Source: an uncultured Methanosarcinales archaeon (GTDB lineage: Archaea > Nanobdellota > Nanobdellia > Woesearchaeales > GW2011-AR9). Taken from it: a stretch of 32,377 bases of DNA. A model generated the notes under the pieces. That model searched no databases. It worked only from the letters and a program-made list of their open reading frames with translations, and had not been told where the DNA came from. Positions 953 through 32,377 of the stretch are shown here, piece after piece (the stretch's first letter is position 1; the number at the start of each line of letters is the position of its first letter). The translations under genes and the position numbers were made by a program. The DNA lies in assembly GCA_964502785.1 (NCBI GenBank), contig CAZCXW010000009.1, positions 1 through 32,377 of the forward strand. The letters run 5' to 3'.

Positions 953-2740
953 TTAACCTACCCCCCATACTGGATTATTCTTCCTTTTCATCTCTGCAAT
1001 TTCTTTTAGAACCTCGATCTCCATCTTTGAAAGATATTTTTTCAATTCTTTCAGTTTCTTGAAATCATCTTCCGGCAGATCAGTATACAAAAAATCCCCT
1101 TCATTAATTTGTCTTCCCACCGTCACTTTGTCAAGAGCCATCGCTAATTGTTTTCCTTGTTCGGCAATGGTCACCGATTCCTGCCCTTCTTTCATGCTCT
1201 TCACCAAAGTCAGATGCTCCCCATCTTCTTTCATGACAGGATCTCCTGTTTTAATCCTTCCCACTTCAATCTCCACTCCGACGATCGCCGGATTATTCTG
1301 GCGGAAAACATATCCTTTAAGGATAAGGAATTTACAAGGACGCACTAATTTGCTTAACTCTTGCAGCTCAATCCTCTTTTTGAATGTTTCAGTATATTTT
1401 TCATATTCTTCAATAACCCGGTAAATAATATCATAAGAAATAATCTTCAAATTTTTTGTCTTGATGTAATCCTCTAACTCCGGTGGAGATTTTACATTAA
1501 AACCTAAAAGAACACCATACATTTGATCTTTTTCCTGGATTGATTCGAGATTGGATAAATCTTTTTTAGTGATATTCCCTAACGAAGCAGAAGAAATGGG
1601 GATTTTCTTCTCTGAAAGAAGTACCCGCAGCGCTTCCAATCCTCCTAGTGTGTCCGCTTTAATAATTACTCCTACCGCATCGCTTTCTTCCATCACCACT
1701 TCTTGAATCTCTTGCTGCACTTCCTCTTTCAAAGCTTCAATATCTTCCTGTTTTCCAGAGCATCCTCGCAGGGGCATTCCCGCCATCGCTTTCTCTAATC
1801 CTGGAGCAATAATCTTTACTCCCGTTGCTGCCATGGCTTCTTTCACTTTTTTGAAACTGCTTTTTTTCTCCCGCATTTCCGTAAGTTCTTCCGGTTCTAG
1901 TAATGCCCTTACCCTTAAAATTAAAGGCCCGTCCATATTCCCAACAATTAATGTATCATTAACTCGTAGCGTGCCATTATAGATAATTGCATCGATGGCC
2001 GTGCCCATCCCTTTTTCTTCTTTTACTTCTAAGATTGTTCCTTTTGCTGGTCCTGCTTCTTCGATCACCAGTTTTTGTTCCAAATACTTTTGTGCTAAGC
2101 CGGTAAGAACCATCAACAATTCCGGTATTCCTTGCCCTGTGTGTGCTGAGATGGGCACCAATGCAATTTGTTTTGTGTAATCCTGAACTCTGTCAAAGCG
2201 TTCCGACTGCAATTCATGTTCATGAAACTGCCCAACCAGTTCATACATTTTTTTCTCAAACTCAGCTTGAAGCTGATAATCTAAATTATTGATATTCTCT
2301 AACAGCAGCTTAGCAGGATCATATTTCCACCCCGCCAATAAGTCAATCTTATTTGCAGCTACGACAAAAGGGACTTTATGAGCTTTCAAAATTTCAATAG
2401 ATTCAATCGTTTGCGGTTTAAATCCTTCATTGATGTCTACGACAAGAATCGCAATATCCGCTAAGCTTCCTCCTCTTTTACGTAAGGATGTGAATGCGGC
2501 ATGACCGGGAGTATCAATTGTAAGCAGTCCTGGGACGGTGAGCTTATCCTTAAAAACATTCATTAATGATCCGCAGATTTTCTTAATCGTTTCAATGGGG
2601 ATAATGGAAACACCGATGGCTTGCGTAATTCCTCCCGCTTCTCCTTTGGTCACTGCCGTCTGCCTAATTTTATCTAACAATGAAGTCTTTCCATGGTCAA
2701 CGTGACCTAAGGTTGCAACTAAAACTTTGCGGATTGCCAT
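953..2740 (-). CDS. infB: Translation initiation factor aIF5B (IF-2 family GTPase)
   Basis: GTPase motifs GHVDHGKTSLLD, DTPGH and NKID; full-length aIF5B-like architecture (595 aa). Start moved to ATG 2740 (MAIRKVLVATLGHVDHGKT). The 33 extra N-terminal codons of the track ORF are hydrophobic junk running into the divergent promoter. Confidence 0.95.
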   Translation of the reverse strand: MAIRKVLVATLGHVDHGKTSLLDKIRQTAVTKGEAGGITQAIGVSIIPIETIKKICGSLMNVFKDKLTVPGLLTIDTPGHAAFTSLRKRGGSLADIAILVVDINEGFKPQTIESIEILKAHKVPFVVAANKIDLLAGWKYDPAKLLLENINNLDYQLQAEFEKKMYELVGQFHEHELQSERFDRVQDYTKQIALVPISAHTGQGIPELLMVLTGLAQKYLEQKLVIEEAGPAKGTILEVKEEKGMGTAIDAIIYNGTLRVNDTLIVGNMDGPLILRVRALLEPEELTEMREKKSSFKKVKEAMAATGVKIIAPGLEKAMAGMPLRGCSGKQEDIEALKEEVQQEIQEVVMEESDAVGVIIKADTLGGLEALRVLLSEKKIPISSASLGNITKKDLSNLESIQEKDQMYGVLLGFNVKSPPELEDYIKTKNLKIISYDIIYRVIEEYEKYTETFKKRIELQELSKLVRPCKFLILKGYVFRQNNPAIVGVEIEVGRIKTGDPVMKEDGEHLTLVKSMKEGQESVTIAEQGKQLAMALDKVTVGRQINEGDFLYTDLPEDDFKKLKELKKYLSKMEIEVLKEIAEMKRKNNPVWGVG

Positions 2741-2829
2741 CAGTAACCCTGAACTGAAGATTATTTTTAAACTTAACGAGCAGGTTTGACAGAAAAATTT
2801 AAATATAAATACTATATTTAAGTAGTAAC
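2741..2829. promoter_or_regulatory. Divergent AT-rich promoter region with two TATA-like boxes
   Basis: gattatttttaaac (about 2759-2772) is centred about 26 nt from the aIF5B ATG at 2740. aaatttaaatataaatac (about 2796-2813) is centred about 25 nt from the ATG at 2830. This spacing is typical of archaeal leaderless transcripts. Confidence 0.45.
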
Positions 2830-3540
2830 ATGAATTCAACTCGGCGAACGTTTCTACTGTCAGTGATTATGGCTCCCGTCACTCTGCCATTTATTGGCTG
2901 CGGTGAGCAGACTAAGATTGGAAGAGTTCCTTCTTTGCCCGATGGCGGAATTTTGTATTCAGATGTTCATATTGGCGCGGATGCCGGTGCATTTACCGAT
3001 GCGCGCGCTCCGGATGCAGAATCAGATGTTGCAGATGCTGGAATTGCCTGTCGTATAAAATTTGAATGGTACAATGATTTTGAAAGTCCCTTCTGCCGAC
3101 GCTTCTACGAAGACTCTCTTCCTTCGATTAAAACTGATTACGGTTCTCAAGTTGACGTCGTAATCCATCATTTTCCCCTTCCGGAAATTTTTCCGAATGC
3201 CTATTTTGCCGCCGTCGCTGCCGAATGCGCGCTTCGCCAAGGAAAGTTTTGGGAATATGCAGATCTCCTTTTTCAAAATCAAGGGAATTTAACCGATCGC
3301 AACCTACAGCAATTTGCATCCAACGTAGGCCTTGATGAGAGAATCTTCAATGAATGTTTTGATGCAGGTTCCAATGGAATTGCTCAAACGCAAGTTCAAA
3401 ATGATAAGAATAATGGTCAAGATCGTGCCGTTCGAGGTGTTCCTACGTTTTTCATCGGTCCACAAAATCTCCGTATTGATGGCGCTAATCCTTACGTCCA
3501 ATTCAAGTCCGTTATAGAAGAAGCATGCGGGCGGCAATAA
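2830..3540 (+). CDS. DsbA-like thioredoxin-fold protein with Tat-type signal and lipobox; active site SPFC
   Basis: N-terminus MNSTRRTFLLSV...LPFIGC combines a twin-arginine motif (S/T-R-R-x-F-L) with a lipobox-like Cys. The body matches the DsbA/Thioredoxin_4 pattern (FEWYNDFESPFCRRF..., QGKFWEY..LF, RGVPTFFIG cis-Pro loop). Confidence 0.75.
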   Translation: MNSTRRTFLLSVIMAPVTLPFIGCGEQTKIGRVPSLPDGGILYSDVHIGADAGAFTDARAPDAESDVADAGIACRIKFEWYNDFESPFCRRFYEDSLPSIKTDYGSQVDVVIHHFPLPEIFPNAYFAAVAAECALRQGKFWEYADLLFQNQGNLTDRNLQQFASNVGLDERIFNECFDAGSNGIAQTQVQNDKNNGQDRAVRGVPTFFIGPQNLRIDGANPYVQFKSVIEEACGRQ

Positions 3541-14594: not shown

Positions 14595-15683
14595 ATGAAA
14601 GTAGCAATTATCGGTGCTGGTCCCATCGGCTGTTATGCCGGCTACTTATTGGCAAAAGCCGGCCATTATGTTTCTATTTACGAAAATCATGGCCAAATCG
14701 GTACTCCTATTCAATGCACCGGACTTCTTACCTCTGATTTTGATCAATTTAATTTTCCTATGGATTCTTTCCTTGTCAATACCTTTTCGCGAATTTCCGT
14801 GTTTTCTCCGAACCATCAGCTTGAAATCAAACAGAAAGAATATCTCGTCTGCCGTACACGTTTCGATAATTTCTTTGCCGATCTCGCTAAAAATGCAGGC
14901 GCTTCTATTTTTGTAAACCATTCATTTATTCGCAAAGAAGGCAATACTTTGATCATTAAAGATTCGCAGTGTGCTCAGGAAAAGAAAATCAATCCTGATC
15001 TCGTCCTCGCCGCTGACGGTCCTTTATCTCCTACCGCAAAAGCGTATGGCTTCTATTATCCTAAACGAGAAAATTATTTTGGTATCCAAGCCACCGTCAA
15101 AGGAAACTTTGATCCCACTCAATTTAAGGCCTATTTTGGAGAAAAAGTCTGCCCTGAACTTTTTGCCTGGATTGTTCCTGAATCTCTTACAATTGCCAGA
15201 GTCGGTTTAGCGATGCGCAGGAATTCCCGGGAATACTTTGATACGTTCATGAAAGAACATCATTTTAAAGCTCTCGAAATACAAGCTGGCGCTATTCCCG
15301 TCTATCATCCTCATCAAGAACTGAAAAAAGATAATTGTTACGTTCTTGGTGATGCCGCGGGCATGGTCAAAGCCACTACATTAGGCGGTTTAGTGCCTGG
15401 TTTAAAGCAGGCGGAGATTCTCGCGGATTGTTTAATTCACCACAAAAATTATGAAAAAGCCATCGCTCCACTTGCCAGAAAATTACGGCTTCATTTAGCG
15501 GTACGCAAGATTTTTGATAAATTCTCTGATAAAGACTGGGACAGGCTCGTTTCATTTATTTCCCAGCCGAAAGTGCAGAACATCTTTGAGCGCTACACTC
15601 GCGATAATCCTCTTCCGCTGGTGAGTATGGCTCTTTTGAAGGAACCACGATTCCTATATTTTGCGAAGCATTTGATTGGATAA
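14595..15683 (+). CDS. Geranylgeranyl reductase family flavoprotein (archaeal lipid saturation)
   Basis: FAD fingerprint MKVAIIGAGPIGCYAGYLLAKAGHYVSIYE, and GDAAGMVKATTLGG near the C-terminal third. TATA-like cctttttatatcc lies about 28 nt upstream. Confidence 0.8.
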   Translation: MKVAIIGAGPIGCYAGYLLAKAGHYVSIYENHGQIGTPIQCTGLLTSDFDQFNFPMDSFLVNTFSRISVFSPNHQLEIKQKEYLVCRTRFDNFFADLAKNAGASIFVNHSFIRKEGNTLIIKDSQCAQEKKINPDLVLAADGPLSPTAKAYGFYYPKRENYFGIQATVKGNFDPTQFKAYFGEKVCPELFAWIVPESLTIARVGLAMRRNSREYFDTFMKEHHFKALEIQAGAIPVYHPHQELKKDNCYVLGDAAGMVKATTLGGLVPGLKQAEILADCLIHHKNYEKAIAPLARKLRLHLAVRKIFDKFSDKDWDRLVSFISQPKVQNIFERYTRDNPLPLVSMALLKEPRFLYFAKHLIG

Positions 15684-31171: not shown

Positions 31172-31633
31172 TTATTGCACGGTAATCGTGCCTTGCACTA
31201 CTCTATCTCTGTCATCAGGGCGTTCATCGCGCGTGTCTTCCATTTCGTACTCGCTGGCGTAATAATACACGCCTGGCTGCAAAAATGTATACTGCGCTTT
31301 TGCTCCCGGTGGAAGGAATATCTCCGGACCATTTTCTTGAAACATTATTGTATGGCTGATATAGAACTGTTTTCCTTCTGCATTTTGCACACTGTCTCTG
31401 TTCACCCACATCACTGTGTCTCCGACATTAATTATCAAATCTGTAGGCATGAATTGCAGGTTTTCTACAACTACTTCACTCACCACTCCAGTTGCTTTTA
31501 CAACCAAAGCTTCCTCCTCTTCCTCTGCCACAGACAGCTTTTGTTGCGGTTGTTTTATTTGCTGTTGTTCTACGCAGCTGCTCACCAAGAGCGCGCCCAA
31601 CAGTAAAATACTTAGGACTAGTATTTTTTTCAT
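31172..31633 (-). CDS. Cupredoxin-fold lipoprotein-like protein lacking an intact type-1 Cu site
   Basis: Signal peptide with lipobox MKKILVLSILLLGALLVSSC. Plastocyanin-like VVENLQFMPTDLIINVGDTVMWVNRDS and SHTIMF. The usual C-x(n)-H-x(n)-M loop is replaced by GVYYYASEYEMEDTRDERPDD. Confidence 0.6.
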   Translation of the reverse strand: MKKILVLSILLLGALLVSSCVEQQQIKQPQQKLSVAEEEEEALVVKATGVVSEVVVENLQFMPTDLIINVGDTVMWVNRDSVQNAEGKQFYISHTIMFQENGPEIFLPPGAKAQYTFLQPGVYYYASEYEMEDTRDERPDDRDRVVQGTITVQ

Positions 31634-31662
31634 ATTTTTACCCCCTAATACATCTAACCTTA

Positions 31663-32377
31663 CTACTCAGAAGTCCTCCTTTTTAACAATAATTTCCATT
31701 CTCCTTTATAATACTTGTGGAAAGCATAGAGGGCTGCGAGGACCATCAGCAGGCTGAACCATTGGCCAACAGTAAAGGAAAAATAGGTTTTTTCATCGCG
31801 ATAGAAGTCCAGCAAAAACCTTCCCAAACCCTCTAAAAAGATAAAATTCCAAAAAACAAATCCTGATTTAAACTCTTTCTTGTAACCCAGCCAAAGCAGC
31901 CAAACAAATAACAGGAATCTTTTTCCTGCTTCGTACAACTGATACGGATGCCGGCAGAGATCGTCTCCTCCAGTATTTTTAAAATTAACGCACCACAAAC
32001 CATTCCATGGTTTTCCCCAGAGTTCTCCATTCACAAAATTAGCAATCCTTCCTAACGCCAGAGCCAAAACAGCGGGAATCGTCAGAATATCCGCCACGCG
32101 CCAAAAATCGATTTTTTTCTTTTTACAGAACCATAGTGCTCCTAAGACGCTTCCTGCAAATCCGCCATGGAAACTCATTCCCCCCTGCCAAACTTTAAAG
32201 ATATTAAGAACATTTGAGAAATAATAAAGTGGTTCATAAAATAATTCAAAGAGACGCGCTCCTATAATCAGCCCCATCATTACATAAAAGATAAGATCCC
32301 AGATATCTTCTTTGCTGAGATTAAGTTGTGAACGCTGTTTTTGCAGGAAATAAATTCCTAACAAAAAACCTAACACA
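31663..32377 (-). CDS. lgt: Prolipoprotein diacylglyceryl transferase (Lgt) homologue; the N-terminus runs off the window
   Basis: VWQGGMSFHGGFAG, LGRIANFVNGELWG and RHPYQLYEAG are collinear with the E. coli Lgt signature blocks (VWDGGMSFHGG, GRLGNFINGELWG, RHPSQLYE). Multi-TM protein. Confidence 0.9.
   Translation of the reverse strand, partial: VLGFLLGIYFLQKQRSQLNLSKEDIWDLIFYVMMGLIIGARLFELFYEPLYYFSNVLNIFKVWQGGMSFHGGFAGSVLGALWFCKKKKIDFWRVADILTIPAVLALALGRIANFVNGELWGKPWNGLWCVNFKNTGGDDLCRHPYQLYEAGKRFLLFVWLLWLGYKKEFKSGFVFWNFIFLEGLGRFLLDFYRDEKTYFSFTVGQWFSLLMVLAALYAFHKYYKGEWKLLLKRRTSE

What the first reader, a model, noticed from the sequence alone, without database searches (positions are those of the whole stretch)
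31172..32377. Bacterial-type Lgt next to a lipobox protein in an archaeal genome
The partial ORF at the right edge carries all the Lgt signature blocks. To my knowledge, cultured archaea with lipobox proteins generally lack Lgt/Lsp homologs. Here an Lgt homolog lies 30 nt from a gene whose product has a textbook lipobox (LLVSSC, 31633 downward). A second lipobox-like, Tat-signal protein sits at 2830. Because the window also encodes an archaeal-lipid geranylgeranyl reductase, the lipid donor for this enzyme (archaetidylglycerol versus bacterial or host diacyl-PG) is an open question.
Basis: partly seen in the sequence, partly recalled or inferred. Interest (0 to 1): 0.6.

Follow-up and report, generated by a model that had tools for sequence, protein, structure and literature searches.

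The report
Bacterial-type lipoprotein anchoring pathway in Woesearchaeota
This uncultured DPANN archaeon (Woesearchaeota) carries a genuine bacterial-type Lgt, the enzyme that fastens secreted proteins to membrane lipid, in an operon with a conserved substrate protein; the partner enzymes Lsp and Lit lie elsewhere in the genome, although recent specialist papers say archaea have no Lgt or Lsp.

Summary
Window 31663-32377 (-) encodes the C-terminal 237 residues of a canonical Lgt (Pfam 1e-61; TIGR00544 above its cut-off; the model's only PDB match is E. coli Lgt). Only the contig end truncates the gene. The first 26 codons, including the essential Tyr26 equivalent, lie at the end of contig C73.

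A cupredoxin-fold lipoprotein gene starts 29 nt downstream. Orthologues sit beside lgt in six related genomes, and the lipobox Cys is invariant in all of them.

The contig is archaeal (aIF5B, EF-1beta, ABCE1, Trm1) and fits the bin. The genome also holds LspA and a Lit homologue that keeps the catalytic His dyad. It has about 26 lipobox proteins where 4.7 are expected.

In 301 high-quality genomes of the phylum, Lgt occurs in 265, Lsp in 266 and Lit in 223. Some relatives have overlapping lit-lgt or lsp-lit genes. So this is a lineage-wide pathway, not contamination.

Databases already name these genes, and this scan has noted them in at least 42 other genomes. Two recent papers nevertheless state that Lgt is absent from archaea.

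The lipid donor is unresolved. CarS and CDP-alcohol transferases point to archaeal lipids, while Lit points to ester-linked acyl chains. The Tat reading of the second protein is not supported.

The parts
31663..32377 (-). lgt: C-terminal 237 codons plus TAG stop of prolipoprotein diacylglyceryl transferase. The first 26 codons lie on G000 contig C73:4497-4576(+).
   Evidence: Pfam LGT 1e-61. TIGR00544 157.4 bits, above 118.9. AF2 model pLDDT 86.6, whose only PDB match is 5azb at E 4.3e-9.
31634..31662 (-). 29-nt intergenic spacer with a Shine-Dalgarno-like AGGGGGT (31646-31640) 7 nt before the ATG of the next gene. The two genes are probably one transcript.
   Evidence: Read directly from the sequence. 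The same lgt-then-lipoprotein order occurs in L015, L014, L012, L018 and L019.
31172..31633 (-). 153-aa Sec-type lipoprotein (lipobox LVSS|C, Cys20) with a cupredoxin fold. The type-1 copper ligands Cys and His are lost in this copy.
   Evidence: Cys20 is invariant in 7 orthologues at 26-52% identity. The AF2 core has pLDDT above 90 and matches plastocyanin, amicyanin and CuA domains at probability 1.00. L012 and L014 keep the YxCxFHPxM copper motif.
2830..3540 (+). DsbA/thioredoxin-like secreted protein with an RR motif and a non-canonical lipobox-like PFIGC. Its status as a lipoprotein is doubtful, and it is peripheral to the finding.
   Evidence: Pfam Thioredoxin_4 and DSBA. Sequence. No TatC in the genome. 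Family homologues lack a lipobox.
14595..15683 (+). Geranylgeranyl-reductase-family flavoprotein. It serves only as context for the lipid-donor question.
   Evidence: TIGR02032 159.2 bits against a cut-off of 158.8. It is far below the cut-offs of the digeranylgeranylglycerophospholipid reductase models.

Best explanation
The window ends inside a functional lgt gene of a Woesearchaeota (GTDB Nanoarchaeota/Nanobdellota) archaeon. It belongs to a complete bacterial-type lipoprotein maturation pathway that is inherited across this archaeal phylum. Proposed mechanism: Sec-exported precursors carrying a lipobox have a glyceryl-lipid group transferred from a phosphatidylglycerol-type membrane lipid to the lipobox Cys thiol by Lgt. 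About 26 such precursors exist here, including the cupredoxin-like protein encoded 29 nt downstream of lgt. LspA (C64:942-1382) then removes the signal peptide in front of the lipidated Cys. A Lit-family enzyme (C15:19720-20298) then modifies the new N-terminus. Shown here: family membership of the three enzymes, retention of their catalytic residues, presence and enrichment of substrates, conserved lgt-substrate synteny, lineage-wide distribution, and genomic coupling of the three genes in relatives. Inferred: that the reactions occur as in bacteria, and which lipid is the donor. The genes most likely entered an ancestor of this phylum from bacteria once; the archaeal sequences form one clade in the tree built here. 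Within the window's family the pocket that holds the lipid's glycerol has since been remodelled (Y235E, E243D, mostly E202A).
For: Lgt membership rests. Residues Y26, R73, G98, H103, D129, R143, N146, E151, G154, R239 and R246 are kept, and most are invariant in 144 archaeal rows. The lists of essential residues come from PMC4728403 and PMC13251419. LspA scores 95.2 bits on TIGR00077, above 73.95, and keeps the GNxxDR and FNIAD Asp motifs when aligned to PDB 6ryo. Lit scores 68 bits on Pfam against a cut-off of 24. Its alignment to B. cereus Lit 7b0o keeps His85, Asp88, Val89, Phe149, His153, Phe157 and Trp162. For substrates, 26 N-termini have Cys after a signal-peptide-plus-lipobox pattern out of 408 pattern matches with any residue, against 4.7 expected (p 4.5e-12). 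A closed relative with Lgt and Lsp (G145) has 16 of 294 (p 1.4e-7). A closed relative lacking both (G096) has 3 of 147 (p 0.15). The neighbour's orthologues sit directly downstream of lgt in 5 genomes, and within 1.3 kb in a sixth, with the Cys invariant. Contamination is excluded because archaeal marker genes share the contig, tetranucleotide correlations are 0.991 for C9 and 0.977 for C64, and closed genomes carry both genes (for example G040). Distribution across 301 genomes: Lgt 265, Lsp 266, Lit 223. The same class-level families (f78, f82, f85, f89, f90) lack both Lgt and Lsp. The lit and lgt genes overlap by 8 nt in G192, and lsp and lit overlap by 17 nt in G271. In the tree, all 24 archaeal rows lie on one side of a branch with SH-aLRT 96.
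Against: There is no experimental evidence: no expression, activity or lipid-modified protein has been shown for any of these organisms. In this family Tyr235 and Glu243, whose mutants failed to complement in E. coli (PMC4728403), are replaced by Glu and Asp. Y235 also varies in Bacteroides Lgt. The Lit homologue is far below NCBIfam's equivalog cut-off (35 of 400 bits). The lsp gene lies on a short 6.5-kb contig. The single-origin inference rests on a bacterial sample that is mostly Pseudomonadota. The cross-genome lipobox comparison uses only one genome without the enzymes and is underpowered (Fisher p 0.05 and 0.13). Whether the archaeal AliA system is also present could not be tested.
Confidence: 0.85

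Rival explanations
1. Contamination or mis-binning: the lgt-bearing DNA is bacterial and was wrongly placed in an archaeal bin.
For: Lgt is a hallmark bacterial gene. The gene is split over two contig ends, and lsp lies on a short contig.
Against: The same 32-kb contig encodes aIF5B, EF-1beta, ABCE1 and Trm1. C73 carries HisRS and fits the bin, as do C9 and C64. Lgt is found in 265 of 301 genomes of the phylum, including single-contig genomes. The archaeal sequences form their own clade.
Confidence: 0.01
2. The pathway works, and the donor is an archaeal ether lipid (archaetidylglycerol made through CarS and a PgsA-like transferase). Lgt then attaches a diether (archaeol-type) anchor, as seen on haloarchaeal lipoproteins, and the Lit-like protein does something other than ester-to-amide acyl migration.
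For: CarS is present (Pfam 111 bits). There are four CDP-alcohol phosphatidyltransferases, one PgsA-like and fused to a DAG-kinase-type lipid kinase, and a GGR-family reductase. PlsY, PlsC and CdsA were not found. The glycerol-binding pocket is remodelled in this family (Y235E, E243D, E202A), which could fit a backbone of opposite chirality. Halocyanin-type archaeal lipoproteins carry archaeol (PMC12462473).
Against: Lit keeps every catalytic and conserved residue needed to move an sn-2 ester acyl chain, a reaction impossible on ether chains. Lit is translationally coupled to lgt or lsp in relatives. Other families of the order keep the bacterial-type pocket residues E202, Y235 and E243. G1PDH, GGGPS and DGGGPS were not found, so the cell cannot build archaeol itself.
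Confidence: 0.4
3. The pathway works, and the donor is an ester lipid (diacyl-PG or a mixed ester lipid) scavenged from bacterial neighbours or hosts. This would give diacylglyceryl and then lyso-form (N-acyl, S-monoacylglyceryl) lipoproteins, as in Enterococcus and Bacillus cereus.
For: The Lit homologue has an intact His85/His153/Phe157 site and occurs in 223 of 301 genomes, overlapping lgt or lsp in some. Tyr26 and Arg143, which contact the ester oxygens of PG in E. coli Lgt, are invariant. No de novo archaeal core-lipid genes were found, but a GpsA-like G3P dehydrogenase is present. An SLT-domain peptidoglycan lytic transglycosylase lies two genes upstream of lit, hinting at contact with bacteria.
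Against: No PlsY, PlsC or CdsA was found, so ester phospholipids cannot be made in-house. CarS is the archaeal-type CDP-archaeol synthase. No lipid data exist for these organisms. Lit is missing from about a quarter of the genomes that have Lgt.
Confidence: 0.4
4. The Lgt homologue has been recruited to a different job, for example transferring a lipid to a non-protein acceptor, and the lipobox proteins are processed by an archaeal AliA-type system.
For: AliA and AliB carry out lipidation in Haloferax, and AliA is reported in DPANN 'with some gaps' (PMC12462473). The clade shows substitutions in the H-bond network.
Against: The peptide-binding HGGL motif and all catalytic residues are kept. 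Lgt co-occurs with Lsp, and families that lack one lack the other. The lgt-lipoprotein operon is conserved. Lipobox enrichment tracks the enzymes in the three genomes compared.
Confidence: 0.05

Closest known systems
E. coli Lgt (phosphatidylglycerol:prolipoprotein diacylglyceryl transferase; PDB 5AZB/5AZC; PF01790, TIGR00544)
   Same: It belongs to the same family by HMM above the curated cut-offs. The predicted fold is the same, and 5azb is the only PDB match (E 4.3e-9, TM 0.66). The signature motif is GRIANFVNGELWG, the HGG motif is present, and Y26, H103, R143, N146, G154 and R239 are all kept.
   Different: The host is an archaeon without bacterial phospholipid synthesis genes. Sequence identity is about 27%. 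In this family Y235 is Glu, E243 is Asp and E202 is mostly Ala, although the window keeps Glu at 202. A Cys pair in the outer head domain (WC...CRHP) occurs in 139 of 144 archaeal rows and in almost no bacterial row. The donor lipid is unknown.
Firmicute lyso-form pathway Lgt-Lsp-Lit (Enterococcus faecalis, Bacillus cereus; Lit structure 7B0O)
   Same: The same three enzyme families are present and Lnt is absent. The Lit catalytic dyad and aromatic cage are conserved, and the lit gene is physically coupled to lgt or lsp in relatives.
   Different: The archaeal Lit is shorter at the N-terminus (it matches Pfam positions 35-176) and scores far below the NCBIfam equivalog cut-off. The ester substrate it would need is not known to exist in an archaeal membrane.
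AliA/AliB archaeal lipoprotein lipidation system of Haloferax volcanii (arCOG02177 and arCOG02178)
   Same: It serves the same biological end, lipid anchoring of lipobox proteins in an archaeon. The source paper notes that lipoproteins are abundant in DPANN and that some archaea with many lipoproteins lack AliA and AliB.
   Different: It is an unrelated or at best very distantly related protein family (HHpred probability 29% to Lgt according to PMC12462473). The present gene is a bona fide PF01790 member. Whether AliA is present in this genome could not be tested.
Halocyanin of Natronomonas pharaonis (lipid-anchored archaeal blue copper protein)
   Same: The gene next to lgt encodes a small cupredoxin-fold protein with a lipobox. 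Orthologues in L012 and L014 keep a type-1 copper motif.
   Different: The window's copy has lost the Cys and His copper ligands (Ser and Glu in their place) and carries an acidic insertion. No sequence-level orthology to halocyanin was tested.

Membership tests
Lgt (PF01790 / TIGR00544) | Profile score above the curated family cut-offs | tested here: met
   PF01790 scores 208.8 bits against a cut-off of 24.9. TIGR00544 scores 157.4 against 118.9, even without the first 26 residues.
Lgt (PF01790 / TIGR00544) | Residues absolutely required in E. coli: Y26, H103, R143, N146, G154, R239 | tested here: met
   All are present. Y26 is in RWYG on C73, and the others are in the window ORF. Each is invariant, or nearly so, in 144 archaeal rows. 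The residue list is from PMC13251419.
Lgt (PF01790 / TIGR00544) | Signature motif G142-RLGNFINGELWG-154 and the H103-GGL motif | tested here: met
   The window protein has GRIANFVNGELWG and MSFHGGF.
Lgt (PF01790 / TIGR00544) | Buried H-bond network around the lipid glycerol (E202, Y235, E243, R246) | tested here: not met
   R246 is kept, but Y235 is Glu and E243 is Asp. Most members of the window's family clade also have Ala at E202. Other families of the order keep E, Y and E. Y235 also varies in Bacteroides Lgt, so this does not exclude membership.
Lgt (PF01790 / TIGR00544) | Seven-TM fold with arms and head domain, like 5AZB | tested here: met
   The AF2 model has pLDDT 86.6 and pTM 0.84. 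Foldseek returns 5azb as the only hit at E 0.001 or better (4.3e-9, probability 1.00, TM 0.66).
Lgt (PF01790 / TIGR00544) | Transfers a diacylglyceryl group from PG to the lipobox Cys | not testable with these tools
   This needs an enzyme assay or complementation.
Lgt (PF01790 / TIGR00544) | Lipobox substrates and the downstream peptidase present in the same genome | tested here: met
   There are 26 lipobox N-termini against 4.7 expected. LspA is at C64:942-1382.
LspA (signal peptidase II; PF01252 / TIGR00077) | Score above cut-off and the two catalytic Asp motifs | tested here: met
   TIGR00077 scores 95.2 against 73.95. GNLGDR and FNIADA align with the S. aureus LspA structure 6ryo.
Lit (lipoprotein intramolecular transacylase; PF07314) | Catalytic His85/His153 dyad with Phe157 and the conserved aromatic residues | tested here: met
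   SHLQDVR and FILFHKIFFPQGNWIF align to H85-D88-V89-K90 and to F149...H153...F157...W162 of 7b0o. The residue roles are from PMC8275575.
Lit (lipoprotein intramolecular transacylase; PF07314) | Score above curated cut-offs | tested here: inconclusive
   Pfam scores 68.2 against 24, which is met. NCBIfam Lit equivalog scores 35 against 400 and TIGR01906 scores 53.9 against 74.8, which are not met.
Lnt (apolipoprotein N-acyltransferase) | LNT_N domain present | tested here: not met
   PF20154 gave no match in a genome that is 94% complete.
Tat-dependent lipoprotein (protein at 2830) | A Tat translocase in the genome and a conserved twin-arginine plus lipobox N-terminus | tested here: not met
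   No TatC was found. Homologues in 20 family genomes have TM anchors or long fusions instead.
Type-1 (blue) copper cupredoxin (neighbour gene) | Cupredoxin fold with His-Cys-His-Met copper ligands | tested here: not met
   The fold criterion is met. The ligands Cys and His are replaced by Ser and Glu in the window copy, while orthologues L012 and L014 keep them.
AliA/AliB (arCOG02177/02178) | Presence of an arCOG02177 homologue | not testable with these tools
   No profile or seed sequence was available, and the paper's supplements are not held.

The most novel reading that the evidence does not exclude
If the pathway is functional, one of two unprecedented things must be true. Either (a) a bona fide Lgt uses an archaeal ether lipid with a glycerol-1-phosphate backbone as donor, which would be a new substrate class and stereochemistry for this enzyme family. 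Or (b) an archaeon anchors its surface proteins with ester-linked acyl chains, as the intact and operon-coupled Lit transacylase implies. Option (b) means that Woesearchaeota hold or scavenge bacterial-type phospholipids, perhaps from bacterial hosts. Either outcome bears on the 'lipid divide'. It would also identify the lipidation route that the AliA/AliB authors noted as missing for archaea that have many lipoproteins but no AliA.
Probability: 0.75. Interest if true: 0.8.

Novelty: new member of a known kind. Interest (0 to 1): 0.66.

Why it matters
Two recent specialist papers state that archaea have no Lgt or Lsp homologues: Nat Commun 2025 (PMC12462473) and mBio 2026 (PMC13251419), the latter titled in part 'absent from archaea'. 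They build evolutionary and antibiotic-target arguments on that claim. Here a complete Lgt-Lsp-Lit set, with substrates, is near-universal in a whole archaeal phylum.

This corrects the distribution of the family. It offers an answer for DPANN genomes that have many lipoproteins. It also makes a concrete question testable: can Lgt work on archaeal lipids, or do these archaea carry ester lipids?

The family-specific Y235E/E243D pocket variant is a natural experiment on positions that were intolerant to mutation in E. coli.

Tried and rejected
- **Contamination:** rejected on marker genes, tetranucleotide fit and closed genomes.
- **Truncated pseudogene:** rejected, because the N-terminus was found on C73.
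- **Lnt:** not found.
- **Tat route for the protein at 2830:** no TatC, and its lipobox-like N-terminus is not shared by family homologues.
- **Donor of the transfer:** not resolved. The tree therefore shows only that the archaeal sequences form one clade against those rows. The Atlas 'Bacillota' labels rest on few members and may describe the protein's own cluster, so they were not used.
- **AliA presence:** could not be tested. No profile was available and the paper's supplements are not held.
- **Literature searches:** searches for Lgt or Lsp in Woesearchaeota or DPANN found no paper reporting them. Most 'LGT' hits mean lateral gene transfer.
- **Between-genome lipobox comparison:** it has only one enzyme-negative genome and is underpowered (Fisher p 0.05 and 0.13). 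It is suggestive only.
- **UbiA hit as DGGGP synthase:** rejected, since its best match is a decaprenyl-phosphate phosphoribosyltransferase-like model.
- **First crude gene call:** it missed the window's own lipoprotein because of an equal-length antisense ORF. The census was redone on all ORFs.
Full report
**What is there**

The window is the whole of contig C9 of a 1.32-Mb, 95-contig genome bin (94% complete, 0.8% contamination). On the minus strand an open frame runs from the last base (32377) to a TAG at 31665-31663. Its 237 residues match Pfam LGT at E 1e-61 over model positions 19-238 of 240. They score 157.4 bits against NCBI's equivalog TIGR00544, above the 118.9 cut-off.

The missing start is not lost. 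[quoted passage not shown] The last 6 nt of C73 equal the first 6 nt of the reverse complement of C9. The joined frame gives a 262-aa protein collinear with the 263-aa homologue P0001, which is 74% identical. C73 also carries a histidyl-tRNA synthetase gene.

**The organism**

The contig encodes aIF5B (GTP_EFTU plus IF-2 plus domain 4), Trm1, EF-1beta, ABCE1/RLI and RNA 3'-phosphate cyclase, so it is archaeal. The nearest public records are Candidatus Woesearchaeota, Nanoarchaeota or Nanobdellota MAGs. Tetranucleotide profiles of C9 (r 0.991) and of C64, which holds lsp (r 0.977), are typical for contigs of their size in this bin.

**Is it a working Lgt?**

Alignment to E. coli Lgt (PDB 5azb) and to 143 archaeal and 69 bacterial homologues gave the following:
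- The six residues reported as absolutely required are all present: Y26, H103, R143, N146, G154 and R239 (list from PMC13251419).
- R73, G98, D129, E151 and R246 are present as well.
- The signature motif reads GRIANFVNGELWG.

An AlphaFold2 model (pLDDT 86.6, pTM 0.84) has E. coli Lgt as its only significant PDB match (E 4.3e-9, probability 1.00, TM 0.66).

Three positions of the buried H-bond network that holds the glycerol of the donor lipid differ (network described in PMC4728403). Y235 is Glu, E243 is Asp, and in most close relatives E202 is Ala. One search shows that this triple change is confined to the window's family-level clade. Other families of the same order keep E, Y and E. A pair of Cys residues in the outer head domain (WC...CRHP) occurs in 139 of 144 archaeal rows and in almost no bacterial row.

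**The neighbour**

A 153-aa gene (31633-31172) starts 29 nt downstream, behind an AGGGGGT Shine-Dalgarno-like element. Its N-terminus is MKKILVLSILLLGALLVSS|C.

Homologues lie directly downstream of lgt in five related genomes (L015, L014, L012, L018, L019) and 1.2 kb away in a sixth (L016). In the seven-way alignment the lipobox Cys is one of only eleven invariant columns, at 26-52% identity.

The model's core (pLDDT above 90) is a cupredoxin, with plastocyanin, amicyanin and CuA domains matching at probability 1.00. Two orthologues keep a type-1 copper motif (YxCxFHPxM), while the window's copy has Ser and Glu at the Cys and His positions. The arrangement recalls halocyanin, the classical lipid-anchored archaeal blue copper protein.

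**The rest of the pathway**

- **LspA** lies at C64:942-1382. TIGR00077 scores 95.2 bits, above 73.95, and both catalytic Asp motifs align to PDB 6ryo.
- **Lnt** was not found.
- **Lit:** A 192-aa homologue lies at C15:19720-20298, scoring 68 bits on Pfam against a cut-off of 24 but far below the NCBIfam equivalog cut-off. Aligned to B. cereus Lit (7b0o), it keeps His85, Asp88, Val89, Phe149, Phe152, His153, Phe157, Trp162 and Phe164. These are the catalytic dyad and the conserved aromatic cage described in PMC8275575.

**Substrates**

I scanned all ORFs for an N-terminal basic region, a hydrophobic stretch, a lipobox and then any residue at +1. This gave 408 matches, of which 26 have Cys at +1. 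From the 1.15% Cys content 4.7 are expected (binomial p 4.5e-12). Nearly all 26 are followed by polar linkers, as in real lipoproteins.

The same scan on two closed genomes of the class gave:

| Genome | Lgt and Lsp | Cys at +1 / all matches | p |
|---|---|---|---|
| G145 (0.74 Mb) | present | 16 / 294 | 1.4e-7 |
| G096 (0.49 Mb) | not found | 3 / 147, one convincing | 0.15 |

. With a single negative genome this is suggestive, not proof.

**Distribution**

In 301 genomes of the phylum, each at least 90% complete, the counts were Lgt 265, Lsp 266 and Lit 223. These tallies include two unpublished genomes (G261, G262), and no individual claim rests on them. Without them the counts are 263, 264 and 221 of 299.

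The window's family has Lgt in 35 of 36 genomes and Lsp in 36 of 36. Several class-level families (f78, f82, f85, f89, f90) lack both. Four control archaea (M. jannaschii, H. volcanii, S. acidocaldarius, M. acetivorans) have neither. Single-contig genomes carry both genes, for example G040.

In relatives the genes are physically coupled. The lit and lgt genes overlap by 8 nt in G192, and lsp and lit overlap by 17 nt in G271.

In a quick maximum-likelihood tree of 93 sequences all 24 archaeal rows fall on one side of a branch (SH-aLRT 96). The bacterial rows are mostly Pseudomonadota, so neither the donor nor a single origin is firmly established.

**The lipid donor**

The genome has:
- CarS (CDP-archaeol synthase family);
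- four CDP-alcohol phosphatidyltransferases, one PgsA-like and fused to a DAG-kinase-type lipid kinase;
- a GGR-family reductase;
- a GpsA-like dehydrogenase.

I found no G1P dehydrogenase, GGGPS, DGGGPS, PlsY, PlsC or CdsA; the one UbiA hit is decaprenyl-phosphate phosphoribosyltransferase-like. The cell therefore seems unable to make either kind of core lipid. It probably scavenges core lipids and remodels head groups.

CarS and the remodelled glycerol pocket favour an archaeal PG-type donor. The intact, operon-coupled Lit favours ester-linked acyl chains, because the Lit reaction moves an sn-2 ester acyl group to the amine. An SLT-domain peptidoglycan lytic transglycosylase two genes upstream of lit hints at dealings with bacteria. 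I rate the two donor readings about equal. Either would be new.

**What is known**

NCBI and JGI records already name these proteins 'prolipoprotein diacylglyceryl transferase [Candidatus Woesearchaeota archaeon]'. This scan has noted the same thing in at least 42 other genomes.

The literature I could search holds no report of it. Two recent papers say the opposite. [quoted passage not shown] The first of these also notes that lipoproteins are common in DPANN and that some archaea with many lipoproteins lack AliA and AliB. The present pathway is an obvious candidate to fill that gap.

**The second protein**

The DsbA-like protein at 2830-3540 has an RR motif and PFIGC. No TatC was found. Its homologues in 20 genomes of the family carry transmembrane anchors or sit in fusions of about 550 aa, not behind lipoboxes. 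The Tat-lipoprotein reading is not supported.

**Verdict**

The enzyme is an ordinary member of a known family in an unexpected domain of life, and part of a lineage-wide pathway. The open and interesting part is the chemistry of the anchor.

Noticed in passing
window 32372-32377 and G000:C73:4497-4576 (L103): Contigs C73 and C9 join inside lgt. There is a 6-nt overlap (TGTGTT), and the joined frame is collinear with homologues. HisRS lies on C73 on the opposite strand.
   Followed up: yes
window 31663-32377 (Lgt residues aligned to E. coli 202, 235, 243): E202A, Y235E and E243D are fixed together in the window's family clade only (the window itself keeps Glu at 202). Other families of the order keep the bacterial residues. 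In E. coli, Y235 and E243 mutants did not complement.
   Followed up: partly
window 31663-32377 (Cys129 and Cys141 of the partial protein): A Cys pair in the extracytoplasmic head domain (WC...CRHP) occurs in 139 of 144 archaeal Lgt rows and in almost no bacterial row, so it may form a disulfide. The genome encodes secreted DsbA-like proteins.
   Followed up: no
G000:C17:20161-21615 (L097:493-1947, -): A 484-aa fusion joins a PgsA-like CDP-alcohol phosphatidyltransferase to a DAG-kinase-type (DAGK_cat) lipid kinase. This layout would suit recycling of scavenged diacyl- or dialkyl-glycerol into PG-type lipid.
   Followed up: partly
G000:C15 (L102:2497-3360, -): An SLT-domain lytic transglycosylase (Pfam 62.8 bits), a bacterial peptidoglycan-cleaving enzyme, lies in an archaeon. 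It sits two co-directional genes upstream of lit, with a YbaK-type tRNA-editing domain gene between them.
   Followed up: partly
G000:C46:41-946 (L100, -): The only UbiA-family gene found is closest to decaprenyl-phosphate phosphoribosyltransferase models (208.7 bits, cut-off 234), not to DGGGP synthase. G1PDH and GGGPS were also not found.
   Followed up: partly
L012:1741-2127 and L014:2328-2723: Orthologues of the lgt-adjacent lipoprotein keep a type-1 copper motif (H...YxCxFHPxM). The window copy and L015 have lost it and gained an acidic insertion.
   Followed up: partly
L017, L022, L023 (public records titled 'uncultured Methanosarcinales archaeon') and P0077 ('Nitrospirae bacterium', 1.1-kb contig): Their Lgt sequences nest inside the Woesearchaeota family clade or are 56% identical to the window's. 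The organism labels of these records are probably wrong.
   Followed up: no
L127, L129, L131-L133, L135, L138: In relatives, DsbA-like domains homologous to window 2830-3540 are embedded in proteins of about 550 aa that start with a conserved acidic MEQKQLDE... N-terminus.
   Followed up: no
L008 (G040:C1:121863-125576): In a closed genome of another family, lgt is flanked by two further lipobox ORFs: 1141-1371 (-) with LLLTGC and 2805-3374 (+) with LLVGC.
   Followed up: no
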